This document shows positions 18,844-19,367 of a stretch of 64,000 nt of DNA, in pieces. Origin of the DNA: Escherichia virus TH40; sequence record MT446411.1; one strand, written 5' to 3'. Position numbers and translations under genes: made by a program. Below the pieces are notes generated by a model. That model did no database searches. It was not told the DNA's origin and saw nothing but the letters and a program-made list of their open reading frames with translations. How positions within the stretch are numbered: position 1 is the first letter of the stretch; the number at the start of each line of letters is the position of its first letter.

Positions 18844-18874
18844 TTTGTTTTTCCATTATTAGGGTTGTTGTTAA

Positions 18875-18882
18875 TATTTATA
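18875..18882 (-). promoter_or_regulatory. T4-type late promoter motif TATAAATA
   Basis: minus-strand ggaaTATAAATAttaac about 32 nt upstream of ATG 18843. Confidence 0.5.
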
Positions 18883-18892
18883 TTCCATAGTA

Positions 18893-18945
18893 CCGGATGC
18901 ACCACCCGCTCGGATTTCTCATACTACCGGGCGCACCGCCCGCTC
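18893..18945 (-). repeat. tandem direct repeat (two ~24-nt GC-rich units, each a short hairpin)
   Basis: plus taccggatgcaccacccgctcgg ... taccgggcgcaccgcccgctctgg separated by 11 nt. Confidence 0.6.
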
Positions 18946-19084
18946 TGGAAAAACTCCGTAAAAGGTGCGCCGTTTCAGCTGTGATATAAGGGGCCATTAA
19001 CAAAACATAAAGATTTATTAATGTCAGTCCTTAAACAGGGAACTTCAGTCCGACGACTTACCGGTAGCGACCCGGTTTCTTGTT

Positions 19085-19160
19085 TGGTCGAGACAGTAGG
19101 AATCGAACCTACGACCCAGGACTTAGAAGGTCCTTGCTCTTCCTTCTGAGCTATGCCTCG
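19085..19160 (-). tRNA. tRNA-Arg (anticodon UCU)
   Basis: 76-nt cloverleaf folded by hand: acceptor CGAGGCA/TGTCTCG, D-arm GCTC-AGAAGGAA-GAGC, anticodon stem AGGAC/GTCCT with loop CTTCTAA, T-arm GTAGG-TTCGATT-CCTAC, encoded CCA. Confidence 0.8.
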
Positions 19161-19293
19161 TGCTTGTTCATAGCGGGGTGGACTCGAACCACCAATATTA
19201 AGTCACTCATGCTCCAAGCATGCAGGGCACTTACCCCGGACGGAATCGAACCGCATCTACAATACCTATCGCCATGATAATTTAAAATAAGTT
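19161..19293 (-). ncRNA. unresolved tRNA-like / small stable RNA region
   Basis: two T-arm-like motifs (GGTTCGATTCC, GGTGGTTCGAGTCCACC) but no canonical cloverleaf could be folded by hand. Confidence 0.25.
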
Positions 19294-19367
19294 TGGTGGC
19301 CCTGGGTGGAATCGAACCACCATCCAGCGATTATGAGTCGCTCGCTTGACCGTCCAGCTACAGGGCC
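19294..19367 (-). tRNA. tRNA with CAU anticodon (Met, or Ile if lysidine-modified as in T4)
   Basis: 74-nt cloverleaf: acceptor GGCCCTG/CAGGGCC perfect 7 bp, anticodon stem AGCGA/TCGCT with loop CTCATAA, T-arm GGTGG-TTCGATT-CCACC, encoded CCA. Confidence 0.75.

What the first reader, a model, noticed from the sequence alone, without database searches (positions are those of the whole stretch)
19161..19293. Non-canonical tRNA-like segment between tRNA(CAU) and tRNA-Arg(UCU)
The 133 nt between the two clean tRNAs contain two T-arm-like motifs (GGTTCGATTCC and GGTGG-TTCGAGT-CCACC) and several stems, but I could not pair a 7-bp acceptor stem for either. This could be a degenerate tRNA, a tRNA with an unusual structure, or a tRNA-derived small stable RNA processed with the cluster.
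Basis: seen in the sequence. Interest (0 to 1): 0.5.

Follow-up and report, generated by a model that had tools for sequence, protein, structure and literature searches.

The report
Conserved double-T-arm tRNA-like phage RNA
The stretch between the two phage tRNA genes is neither a broken tRNA nor junk: it is one ~108-nt structured RNA gene shaped like two nested tRNA-like folds, conserved in unrelated phages, annotated in no record examined, and of unknown function.

Summary
On the minus strand, the 133-nt spacer between tRNA(CAU) and tRNA-Arg(UCU) carries two canonical T-loop hairpins. ARAGORN and Rfam call nothing there. Neither hairpin has its own acceptor stem. Instead one acceptor-like stem (19276-19270 with 19175-19169) encloses both, defining a single RNA of about 108 nt.

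The same RNA occurs in T4-like phages of three genera, in N4-like podoviruses (G7C and KP8 groups), in a 95-kb uncultivated phage and, more distantly, in three Streptomyces phages. No record examined annotates it as an RNA gene. Every helix shows compensatory changes: 97.5% of cells are paired, and 10 of 31 pairs changed on both sides in an unbiased alignment. A covariance model scores members at 38-136 bits and ordinary tRNAs at 25 bits or less.

The outer part is an acceptor plus T-arm minihelix. The inner part is a variable-loop-like stretch, a T hairpin, a capped stem and a D-arm-like hairpin, the same permuted order as the tRNA-like domain of bacterial YrlA Y RNAs. It has no anticodon arm, so it cannot decode.

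It is not a member of the tRNA, tmRNA, YrlA or T4 rnaC families. It most likely matures like a tRNA and acts as a tRNA mimic; its target is unknown.

The parts
19169..19276 (-). The whole tRNA-like RNA as delimited by the covariance model (about 108 nt; the discriminator-like A at 19168 follows).
   Evidence: Model R1 scores it 101 bits, E=7e-25.
19270..19276 (-). 5' strand of the acceptor-like stem (CAUGGCG). The next base, A 19269, faces C 19176 as a mismatch that is N-C in every family member.
   Evidence: 100% of cells are paired and 4-5 of the 6 modelled pairs show changes on both sides.
19169..19175 (-). 3' strand of the acceptor-like stem (CGCUAUG). It starts one nucleotide (C 19176) after the outer T stem. 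No CCA is encoded.
   Evidence: sequence.
19263..19268 (-). Linker UAGGUA holding the conserved YUGGU-like motif. GGUA (19266..19263) can pair with UAUU (19197..19194) as 'helix 2', or the GG may act as a D-loop analogue for the outer T loop.
   Evidence: The GG is invariant. Helix 2 is 97-99% paired, but within the enteric set it shows only one-sided changes, so it is the least certain helix.
19255..19260 (-). GUAGAU, a variable-loop-like stretch just 5' of the inner T hairpin. It is nearly invariant in the enteric-phage copies.
   Evidence: Alignment A1. The same GUAGA + T-arm arrangement occurs in ordinary phage tRNAs.
19240..19254 (-). Inner T hairpin 'T1': GCGG-UUCGAUU-CCGU, a 4-bp stem with a canonical 7-nt T loop.
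   Evidence: 100% paired, with a C-G to G-C swap between the T4-like and G7C-like copies.
19223..19239 (-). Hairpin 2, a variable capped stem in the position of the closed 'acceptor stem' of YrlA. The window copy lacks one A (CUAGC becomes CUGC) at its 3' base, an A present in every other copy.
   Evidence: 4 of 7 pairs changed on both sides. Hairpin 2 is absent in L025. The deletion is visible.
19208..19222 (-). Hairpin 3, D-arm-like: CAUGC-UUGGA-GCAUG, with an invariant GG in the loop.
   Evidence: 2-3 pairs changed on both sides. The loop UUGGW resembles the Y16 Y17 G18 G19 U20 core of a D loop (established tRNA knowledge).
19194..19207 (-). 3' linker AGUGACUUAAUAUU, holding the conserved GACUUAAUA and the 3' strand of helix 2.
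   Evidence: Alignment A1.
19177..19193 (-). Outer T arm: GGUGG-UUCGAGU-CCACC (5 bp with a 7-nt T loop).
   Evidence: 99-100% paired, with 2-3 pairs changed on both sides.
19277..19293 (-). A/U-rich 5' leader of 17 nt between the CCA end of tRNA(CAU) and the RNA. Other T4-like phages have only 2-3 nt here.
   Evidence: Alignment.
19161..19168 (-). Discriminator-like A plus the 7-nt trailer ACAAGCA, running up to the 5' end of tRNA-Arg.
19294..19367 (-). Flanking tRNA(CAU), upstream in the direction of transcription.
19085..19160 (-). Flanking tRNA-Arg(UCU), downstream.

Best explanation
The spacer encodes one functional, non-decoding tRNA-like RNA of about 108 nt, a member of a phage RNA family that has no Rfam model and is annotated in none of the records examined. 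The outer layer is a tRNA-type acceptor stem (6-7 bp, with a conserved N-C mismatch at the junction) stacked on a canonical T arm. In place of the D and anticodon arms there is a nested module: a variable-loop-like GUAGA, a second T hairpin, a capped variable stem and a D-arm-like hairpin with a GG loop. This is the circularly permuted tRNA order also seen in the tRNA-like domain of bacterial YrlA Y RNAs. The following steps are inferred and not shown. The RNA is transcribed with the tRNA cluster. RNase P cuts it at the 5' end of the acceptor stem. The 3' end is trimmed, and possibly given CCA by the host enzyme. The two T loops dock on the two GG motifs to form two tRNA-like elbows. The mature RNA would then act by tRNA mimicry, as a decoy or adaptor for a tRNA-recognising host or phage factor, for example a tRNA-targeting defence nuclease or a tRNA processing or modifying enzyme. 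The confidence given (0.75) applies to the statement as a whole up to and including maturation as a stable tRNA-like RNA. 'Conserved structured non-decoding RNA gene' alone I rate at about 0.9, maturation by the tRNA pathway at about 0.6, and any specific decoy function at about 0.25.
For: Conservation. Spacer nt 18-133 is 95-98% identical in Dhakavirus, Kanagawavirus and Karamvirus phages whose flanks differ. Spacer nt 34-124 is 74-79% identical in N4-like Gamaleyavirus phages. Further copies occur in Klebsiella phage KP8 and relatives (92 bits), in a 95-kb uncultivated phage (66 bits), and in Streptomyces phages YDN12, Abt2graduatex2 and Geonosis (38-52 bits, with a model built without them).

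Structure. RNAalifold on a plain MAFFT alignment recovers the acceptor stem, T1, hairpin 3 and the T arm, with 9 of 20 pairs compensatory. The 31-pair model is 97.5% paired with 10 pairs changed on both sides; 0 of 500 shuffles reach this, and slid controls give 39-56% paired. The model-fitted alignments give 16 of 31 and 22 of 31 such pairs. The comparative fold lies within 0.7-4.1 kcal/mol of each sequence's minimum free energy.

Specificity. Ordinary tRNAs score 25 bits or less with R1.

Context. In the enteric and uncultivated phages the RNA always sits in or next to tRNA genes, on the same strand.

Not decoding. No tRNA finder or model accepts it. T1-loop position 57 varies G/A among close relatives, as expected for a T loop and not for an anticodon.

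Analogy. [quoted passage not shown]
Against: There is no expression or processing data for any member. Single-sequence folding is not more stable than shuffles (z = -0.9 to -2.3). Helix 2 has only one-sided changes within the enteric set. The window copy carries a 1-nt deletion found in no other copy. No CCA is encoded. No partner protein co-occurs consistently; the downstream ORFs differ between phages. The decoy or adaptor function is pure inference, perhaps 25% likely in the specific form of an anti-defence decoy. In the Streptomyces phages the RNA is not next to any tRNA, so co-processing with tRNAs is not universal.
Confidence: 0.75

Rival explanations
1. The spacer holds the decayed remains of one or two tRNA genes (for example the tRNA-Asn that related phages carry at this position), now non-functional.
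For: JS98-type Dhakavirus phages have tRNA-Asn exactly here. The segment has T-arm motifs but fails tRNA detection. The window copy has a private 1-nt deletion.
Against: The sequence is unrelated to JS98 tRNA-Asn apart from the T loop (R1 gives that tRNA 12.3 bits). The segment is conserved at 74-98% in phages of different families with unrelated flanks, and changes are compensatory in every helix. Pseudogenes do not preserve pairing across Straboviridae, Schitoviridae and Streptomyces phages.
Confidence: 0.03
2. It is a real but aberrant decoding tRNA. T1 would be the anticodon arm, with its loop UUCGAUU read as anticodon CGA (Ser), or CAA (Leu) in some copies. Hairpin 2 would be the long variable arm of a class II tRNA.
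For: A scan for closely spaced T-loop-like motifs pulls out class II tRNA-like genes whose anticodon loop mimics a T loop, for example L197. Hairpin 2 follows T1 directly, as a variable arm would.
Against: There is no D arm between the acceptor stem and T1; only 12-15 unpaired-looking nt lie there. Position 37 would be U in all copies, whereas tRNAs have a purine. A D-arm-like hairpin lies on the wrong side, after the 'variable arm'. L025 lacks hairpin 2 altogether. The 'anticodon' would switch between CGA and CAA among near-identical G7C-like phages (U1G, PhAPEC5), which is ordinary R57 variation for a T loop. ARAGORN and the Rfam tRNA model reject it (17.4 bits against a threshold of 29).
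Confidence: 0.04
3. It is only a processing punctuation signal, like plant-mitochondrial t-elements. The tRNA-like fold would recruit RNase P and 3' nucleases to cut the polycistronic transcript, freeing neighbouring tRNAs or the mRNA just downstream, and the excised RNA would have no function of its own.
For: In KLB31, PEi20, CkP1 and L016 a ribosome-binding site and start codon follow within about 10-25 nt. It always lies on the transcribed strand of a tRNA and ORF cluster.
Against: An acceptor/T minihelix would be enough for punctuation, yet the inner module is conserved as strongly as the outer one (T1, hairpin 3, GUAGAU, GACUUAAUA). In the window it is flanked by two tRNAs that already provide such sites. 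In G7C-like phages no ORF follows.
Confidence: 0.12
4. It is a phage Y RNA of the YrlA type that works with a Ro60/Rsr protein.
For: The inner module has the YrlA order V-T-AS-D, and YrlA-like RNAs are known in phages (PMC4201824).
Against: The Rfam YrlA model gives no meaningful hit. Its only match (14.5 bits against a threshold of 69) is the known 'dimeric tRNA' artefact spanning the outer T arm and tRNA-Arg. The GNCGAAN0-1G Ro-binding motif is absent from the G7C, KP8 and L025 copies (reading). Where YrlA has the Ro-binding helix, this RNA has a tRNA acceptor/T arm. No rsr gene was seen in any annotated neighbourhood.
Confidence: 0.04
5. It is the orthologue of T4 species 1 RNA (rnaC), moved to a new place in the cluster.
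For: T4 rnaC also ends in ACUUAAUAA + T arm + acceptor-like 3' strand, and is a stable RNA from the tRNA region. The window has rnaD but no rnaC.
Against: rnaC scores 13.2 bits with R2 with filters off, below ordinary T4 tRNAs (10-25 bits), and R1 does not find it at all. Its interior has no second T hairpin and a different helix layout. Its position differs: downstream of rnaD rather than upstream of tRNA-Arg.
Confidence: 0.05

Closest known systems
tRNA-like domain of bacterial YrlA Y RNAs (Rfam RF02553; Chen et al. 2014, PMC4201824)
   Same: It has the same circularly permuted order of tRNA parts: variable region, T stem-loop, a capped stem that is not conserved in sequence and stands for the acceptor stem, then a D-like stem-loop with GG. 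The module is attached to the rest of the RNA through the helix that corresponds to the anticodon stem. YrlA also occurs in phages, and one member is cut by RNase P and receives CCA.
   Different: The module here is attached not to a Ro60-binding helix but to a second, outer tRNA acceptor/T-arm minihelix. There is no GNCGAA motif, no rsr neighbour and no significant score with the YrlA covariance model. One member (L025) lacks the capped stem.
Phage T4 species 1 and species 2 RNAs (rnaC, rnaD)
   Same: They are small RNAs encoded in the tRNA cluster of a T4-type phage. rnaC carries an acceptor/T-arm minihelix at its ends. Their biological roles are unknown (PMC3014915, PMC9697503).
   Different: There is no detectable homology (13.2 bits). 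The interior architecture and the position in the cluster differ. Unlike rnaC and rnaD, this family is shared with N4-like and Streptomyces phages.
tRNA-like domain of tmRNA
   Same: An acceptor stem plus T arm, with no D stem. A short 5' linker holds a GG, and a helix leaves from the anticodon-stem position with its 3' strand abutting the T arm.
   Different: There is no mRNA-like reading frame and there are no pseudoknots. G3-U70 is present only in some T4-like copies and not in CkP1, G7C, KP8, L025 or YDN12. Neither ARAGORN nor the Rfam tmRNA models detect it.
Canonical tRNA (RF00005)
   Same: A 7-position acceptor stem, a 5-bp T stem with a UUCRANU loop, location among tRNA genes, and a probable origin from tRNA sequences (GUAGA + T arm resembles the variable loop + T arm of phage tRNAs).
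   Different: There is no anticodon arm and no D arm in the normal position. It has a second T hairpin, is about 108 nt long, and scores below the threshold of every tRNA detector used.

Membership tests
Canonical tRNA (Rfam RF00005 / ARAGORN) | Score at or above the covariance-model gathering threshold (29 bits), or detection by ARAGORN | tested here: not met
   The window spacer gives no hit, even at E<=10. The G7C copy scores 17.4 bits through a forced alignment. ARAGORN finds nothing at the Streptomyces copies.
Canonical tRNA (Rfam RF00005 / ARAGORN) | Acceptor stem directly stacked on a 5-bp T stem with a 7-nt UUCRANN loop | tested here: met
   Present, and covarying. There is, however, a conserved N-C mismatch at position 7-66.
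Canonical tRNA (Rfam RF00005 / ARAGORN) | Anticodon arm (5-bp stem, 7-nt loop with U33 and purine 37), and a D arm between the acceptor and anticodon arms | tested here: not met
   No such arm exists. The hairpins in the interior are a T-type hairpin (position 37 would be U) and a 5-nt-loop GG hairpin lying 3' of it.
tmRNA | G3-U70 alanine identity pair conserved across members | tested here: not met
   Pair 3-70 is G-U in 5 sequences, and C-G, U-A, A-U or G-C in the others.
tmRNA | Tag reading frame and pseudoknots; detection by ARAGORN or the Rfam tmRNA models | tested here: not met
   ARAGORN finds none. The Rfam tmRNA models match only the bare T hairpins, at 5-18 bits against thresholds of 47-84.
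YrlA / bacterial Y RNA (RF02553) | tRNA-like module in the order V - T - capped stem - D | tested here: met
   The order GUAGA - T1 - hairpin 2 - hairpin 3 is supported by covariation. The YrlA order is taken from PMC4201824.
YrlA / bacterial Y RNA (RF02553) | Ro60-binding 5' motif GNCGAAN0-1G and an enclosing Ro-binding helix | tested here: not met
   Read directly from the sequences. The T4-like copies have GGCGAUAG, which departs from the motif at one position. The G7C, KP8, L025 and YDN12 copies have nothing similar. The enclosing helix is a tRNA acceptor stem plus T arm.
YrlA / bacterial Y RNA (RF02553) | Covariance-model score at or above 69 bits; gene next to rsr (Ro60) | tested here: not met
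   The best hit is 14.5 bits, and it spans the outer T arm and tRNA-Arg. No rsr or TROVE gene is annotated in any neighbourhood inspected. The proteins were not searched by profile.
T4 species 1 RNA (rnaC) | Sequence and structure homology to T4 rnaC | tested here: not met
   R1 gives no hit at E<=5. R2 with filters off gives 13.2 bits over part of rnaC, below the T4 tRNAs.
T4 species 1 RNA (rnaC) | Position downstream of tRNA-Arg and rnaD | tested here: not met
   The element lies upstream of tRNA-Arg. The window's rnaD homologue (19083..18964) is not followed by an rnaC.
The family defined here (models R1 and R2) | One acceptor stem enclosing two T hairpins, with a GG-loop hairpin between them and an N-C mismatch at 7-66; R1 score well above the tRNA background | tested here: met
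   The window copy scores 101 bits, E=7e-25. The background from tRNAs is 25 bits or less.
The family defined here (models R1 and R2) | Accumulation as a discrete processed RNA in infected cells | not testable with these tools
   No transcriptome data were available for VR5-, G7C-, KP8- or YDN12-type phages.

The most novel reading that the evidence does not exclude
This is the first recognised member of a widespread class of phage-encoded 'nested double tRNA' RNAs. Such an RNA presents two tRNA elbows and one free acceptor end, is matured by the host tRNA machinery, and serves as a decoy or adaptor against a conserved tRNA-recognising system. The target could be, for example, tRNA-cleaving or tRNA-modifying anti-phage defences, or RNase P or CCA-enzyme control. 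That would explain its sporadic, horizontally transferred distribution in virulent phages of both enterobacteria and Streptomyces. Perfectly enclosed double-T-hairpin RNAs are far more frequent in IMG/VR than chance allows, which hints that the class is much larger than the family modelled here.
Probability: 0.3. Interest if true: 0.8.

Novelty: new variant of a known kind. Interest (0 to 1): 0.62.

Why it matters
Phage tRNA clusters are usually annotated with tRNA finders alone, and anything those tools reject is left blank. Here the blank holds an RNA gene that selection has kept in shape in at least three unrelated phage lineages, on hosts as far apart as E. coli and Streptomyces.

It adds a new architecture to the short list of natural tRNA mimics (tmRNA, YrlA, T4 species 1 RNA, viral 3' tRNA-like structures). 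This one nests one tRNA-like fold inside another.

The two covariance models (R1, R2) built here would allow the family to be annotated if exported. The phages that carry it (G7C, KP8, VR5) can be grown and manipulated genetically, so deletion and small-RNA experiments are direct. If it proves to be a decoy for tRNA-directed immunity, or a hijacker of tRNA enzymes, it would also suggest what the long-unexplained T4 stable RNAs may be for.

Tried and rejected
1. Public detectors. ARAGORN, and Rfam at both gathering and permissive thresholds, were run on the window, the G7C locus and the YDN12 locus. They returned only bare T-hairpin matches and weak chance hits (RAGATH-36 12-15 bits, throat-1 8 bits, YrlA 14.5 bits as a dimeric-tRNA artefact).

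2. Thermodynamic significance of the single sequence. It is not significant on either strand.

3. Decayed tRNA-Asn. Rejected by direct comparison with JS98.

4. Homology to T4 rnaC. Rejected by the covariance models.

5. Alanine identity (G3-U70) as a general feature. Rejected because it is not conserved.

6. A conserved protein partner immediately downstream. Rejected because the ORFs differ.

7. A host or plasmid copy. None was found in one genome for each of 185,579 bacterial and archaeal species using a 21-base two-motif pattern (3 pattern hits, none confirmed by the model). None was found in 5,426 complete E. coli genomes or in PLSDB plasmids by blastn.

8. The pattern GGTGN{2,6}GTAGATNNGGTTC was too loose.

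9. The scan for two closely spaced T loops is contaminated by class II tRNA-like genes whose CGA or CAA anticodon loops imitate T loops (for example L197). The 28-39-bit R2 hits from it were therefore not counted as family members.

10. Literature searches for a prior description (G7C/N4-like/tRNA-like; T4-like small stable RNA; phage tRNA mimic/decoy) found none in the library searched.
Full report
**Where the window comes from**

The region is 98-99% identical to Escherichia phages TH22, TH15, VR5 and VR25, T4-type phages of the genus Dhakavirus. The local genes are all on the minus strand. Homologues of T4 trna.4, trna.3 and trna.2 come first, then tRNA(CAU) at 19367..19294, the 133-nt spacer, and tRNA-Arg(UCU) at 19160..19085. 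At the same position phage T4 carries the homing-endonuclease gene segB, and JS98-type Dhakavirus phages carry tRNA-Asn. The site is therefore a variable slot in the cluster.

**Checking the observation**

Read on the minus strand, the spacer contains GGUUCGAUUCC (19252..19242) and GGUGG-UUCGAGU-CCACC (19193..19177), as reported. The motif GGTTCRANTCC occurs four times in the 64-kb window against 0.19 expected, and all four lie within 220 nt on this strand. ARAGORN and Rfam report nothing in the spacer, even at E<=10. The folding energy of the single sequence is no better than that of shuffles. On this evidence alone the segment could still have been dismissed.

**Related sequences**

- A sensitive blastn search of 50,697 phage records found the spacer in 39 of them.
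- From nucleotide 18 onwards, which is exactly where the enclosing stem begins, it is 95-98% identical in other T4-type genera whose flanks differ. These are Kanagawavirus KLB31, PEi20 and PEi26, and Karamvirus CkP1.
- Nucleotides 34-124 are 74-79% identical in 28 N4-like podoviruses of the genus Gamaleyavirus (G7C, EC1-UPM, pSb-1, St11Ph5, PhAPEC5/7 and others).
- None of these 39 records annotates an RNA there. One (Mimir124) lists a hypothetical protein over it.
- Pattern scans of IMG/VR and of metagenomes, screened with a covariance model, added nine more G7C-like copies, Klebsiella phage KP8 with seven relatives, and a 95-kb uncultivated phage whose copy lacks one hairpin.
- A scan of one genome for each of 185,579 bacterial and archaeal species gave three pattern hits, none confirmed by the model.
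- Blastn found nothing in 5,426 complete E. coli genomes or in 72,556 plasmids.

**Structure**

A plain MAFFT alignment of 19 distinct sequences (A1) was given to RNAalifold. Without guidance it predicted four helices:

- a stem joining the two ends,
- a 4-bp hairpin with the first T loop (T1),
- a 5-bp hairpin with loop UUGGW (hairpin 3),
- the 5-bp outer T arm.

Nine of its 20 pairs have compensatory changes. My 31-pair model adds two helices. One is a variable hairpin between T1 and hairpin 3 (hairpin 2). The other is a 4-bp helix, GGUR with UAYU, that closes the interior (helix 2).

| Alignment | Sequences | Cells paired | Pairs changed on both sides |
|---|---|---|---|
| A1, plain MAFFT | 19 | 97.5% | 10 of 31 |
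| A2, fitted to the model | 25 distinct | 99.0% | 16 of 31 |
| A4, fitted, with Streptomyces copies | 21 | 98.1% | 22 of 31 |

On all three alignments, 0 of 500 shuffles reached the observed percentage paired or number of pairs changed on both sides. On A1, sliding the 3' partners by 1-3 columns gives only 39-56% paired. A2 and A4 lean towards the model because they were fitted to it.

The acceptor-like stem is the best supported helix, with five of its six modelled pairs covarying. The sequences are CAUGGCG/CGCUAUG in the window, GACGGG/CCCGUU in G7C, GGUGGG/CCCACU in St11Ph5, GGCAAG/CUUGCC in KP8 and ACAGGU/GCCUGU in L025. Helix 2 is the least certain, because within the enteric set it shows only one-sided changes.

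When the acceptor stem and the two T hairpins are imposed, the rest of the fold follows on its own. The result costs 0.7-4.1 kcal/mol relative to each sequence's minimum free energy.

**Anatomy in tRNA terms**

The 3' strand of the enclosing stem begins one nucleotide after the outer T stem. Numbered as a tRNA, the stem has six pairs plus a position 7-66 that is a mismatch in every member (A-C, U-C or C-C, always with C at 66). A discriminator-like base follows, usually A, and no CCA is encoded.

After the 5' strand come two or three nucleotides and a conserved YUGGU-like motif (UAGGU, CUGGU, UUGGU, AUGGU). Next comes GUAGA(U) and then T1, an arrangement that ordinary phage tRNAs show as variable loop plus T arm. 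Hairpin 2 follows T1 directly. It is variable in sequence and length, often capped by a GNRA-like loop, and absent in L025. After U-A comes hairpin 3, whose loop UUGGW matches the Y16-Y17-G18-G19-U20 core of a D loop.

The inner order is therefore variable loop, T arm, capped stem, D arm. That is a tRNA opened at the anticodon loop and closed at the acceptor end. Chen et al. described the same order for the tRNA-like domain of bacterial YrlA Y RNAs (PMC4201824).

In this RNA the module hangs on an outer tRNA-type acceptor/T-arm minihelix rather than on a Ro60-binding helix. Together with the 5' GG linker, that outer part has the topology of the tRNA-like domain of tmRNA. The molecule thus carries two T loops and two GG motifs. 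I infer that these form two tRNA-like elbows; this has not been shown.

**What it is not**

- **Not a decoding tRNA.** There is no anticodon arm. T1 cannot serve as one, because position 37 would be U, no D arm precedes it, and its 'anticodon' would switch between CGA and CAA among near-identical G7C-like phages. That switch is ordinary purine variation at T-loop position 57.
- **Not a decayed tRNA-Asn**.
- **Not tmRNA.** G3-U70 is not conserved, there is no reading frame, and no detector finds it.
- **Not a YrlA family member.** It lacks the Ro-binding motif, no rsr gene is nearby, and the only YrlA model hit (14.5 bits) is the dimeric-tRNA artefact its authors warn about.
- **Not detectably related to T4 species 1 RNA.** T4 rnaC shares only the generic ACUUAAUA + T arm + acceptor ending. 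It scores 13.2 bits, below ordinary T4 tRNAs.

**Wider distribution**

I scanned IMG/VR for two T-loop motifs closer together than two full tRNAs would allow.

Among the 135 occurrences examined, at least a dozen have a perfect Watson-Crick 7-mer that encloses both hairpins and abuts the second T stem. My own estimate of the chance expectation is under one, from 78 trial positions against 4^7 possible 7-mers. With G-U pairs allowed, the excess over a shuffled control is modest (33 against 16).

The set also contains class II tRNA-like genes whose anticodon loop imitates a T loop, so I do not count these hits wholesale.

One hit is clearly the same family. Streptomyces phage YDN12 and two relatives score 38-52 bits with the model built only from the enteric copies and L025 (E about 1e-8 to 1e-12). 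They show every feature:

- acceptor stem GCGGCG/CGCCGY,
- an A-C mismatch at 7-66,
- an AUGGU linker,
- T1,
- a perfect 8-bp hairpin 2,
- a GG-loop hairpin 3,
- the outer T arm,
- discriminator A.

Closely related Streptomyces phages lack it, and no tRNA gene lies nearby there.

The T4-type copies in three genera are nearly identical despite different flanks. Homing-endonuclease genes lie close by: segB in the same slot of T4, HNH genes in G7C and L025. All this points to horizontal spread as a small cassette.

**How it probably works**

Shown:
- The RNA structure is conserved and covaries.
- In the enteric and uncultivated phages it lies on the same strand within tRNA clusters. The simple scan found no minus-strand terminator site between 18600 and 20200 in the window.

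Inferred:
- It is co-transcribed with the tRNAs.
- RNase P cuts before the acceptor stem, and cleavage at the 5' end of tRNA-Arg leaves the 7-nt trailer for exonucleolytic trimming.
- The mature RNA of about 108 nt is stable, like T4 RNAC and RNAD, whose roles are also unknown (PMC3014915, PMC9697503).
- It acts by mimicry on a factor that reads the tRNA shape.

Because the family spans Gram-negative and Gram-positive hosts, the target should be either a universal part of tRNA metabolism or a widespread tRNA-directed defence. I rate 'functional structured tRNA-like RNA that does not decode' at about 0.9. Maturation by the tRNA pathway I rate at about 0.6. Any specific decoy function I rate at about 0.25.

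**The window's own copy**

It differs from VR5, TH15, TH22 and VR25 by one substitution in the trailer and by loss of the A in CUAGC, at the junction of hairpins 2 and 3. That A is present in every other copy and corresponds to the U8-A9-like position of the inner module. The model score drops from 107.5 to 101 bits. This may be a sequencing error, a tolerated variant or a slight defect; I cannot tell which.

**Verdict**

It is one conserved RNA gene with a nested double tRNA-like architecture. Its pieces resemble known tRNA mimics, but it is a member of none of them, it has no Rfam model, and it was annotated in no record I saw. I found no prior description in the literature library searched, though that cannot exclude one elsewhere.

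Noticed in passing
window 18964-19083 (minus strand): Directly downstream of tRNA-Arg lies a homologue of T4 rnaD (species 2 RNA). The aligned stretch has 87% mean column identity and ends in the same ...GAAACGGCGCACC. No rnaC homologue follows it, unlike in T4.
   Followed up: partly
window 18886-18911 and 18920-18945: There are two copies of a 26-nt direct repeat (CATAGTACCGGATGCACCACCCGCTC, 85% identical, 34 nt apart) just downstream of the rnaD homologue on the transcribed strand. A TATAAATA (the T4 late-promoter consensus, from my own knowledge) follows at about 18872-18879 on the minus strand. Its meaning is unknown.
   Followed up: no
L007 (phage G7C) 1966-3156; also L013, L026, L031: G7C-like phages have an ORF-free stretch of about 1.2 kb between gp47.2 and a terminator. 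It holds this RNA plus several other T-arm-like hairpins and weak tRNA-like model hits. ARAGORN calls an odd tRNA-Ile(AAU) about 200-375 nt downstream in PhAPEC5 and L026, but none in G7C. This may be a cluster of further non-canonical tRNA-like RNAs.
   Followed up: partly
L186 (Klebsiella phage KP8) 2537-2603 = L168 7435-7499: A 65-67-nt 'tRNA-OTHER' lies about 90 nt upstream of the KP8 copy. It has an acceptor stem and a T arm but only about 28 nt in between, so it is another truncated tRNA-like gene in the same cluster.
   Followed up: no
IMG/VR loci L193, L216, L226, L232, L236, L238, L281 (coordinates): These are uncultivated-phage RNAs with the same outline: one perfect 7-bp stem enclosing two T hairpins, often with one extra nucleotide before the 3' strand. 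Their interiors differ. They score 28-37 bits with model R2 and may form sister families of a larger class.
   Followed up: partly
L197 851-921 and similar hits: Some phage class II tRNA-like genes have an anticodon arm that reads GG-UUCGAUU-CC, which would be anticodon CGA with U at position 37. Such an arm is indistinguishable from a T arm by motif, and it is a trap for motif-based searches.
   Followed up: no
L307 (Streptomyces phage YDN12) 1440-1512: Two long perfect GC-rich hairpins sit immediately upstream of the Streptomyces copy. One scores 37 bits (below threshold) with the mycobacterial F6 sRNA model on both strands. They are probably terminators, so the RNA there would need its own promoter or read-through.
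   Followed up: no
L004, L005, L016, downstream of the RNA: In Kanagawavirus-type phages the RNA is followed within about 20 nt by a conserved 74-aa ORF and then a YbiA-like (T4 30.3) gene. CkP1 has an unrelated 165-aa ORF instead.
   Followed up: partly
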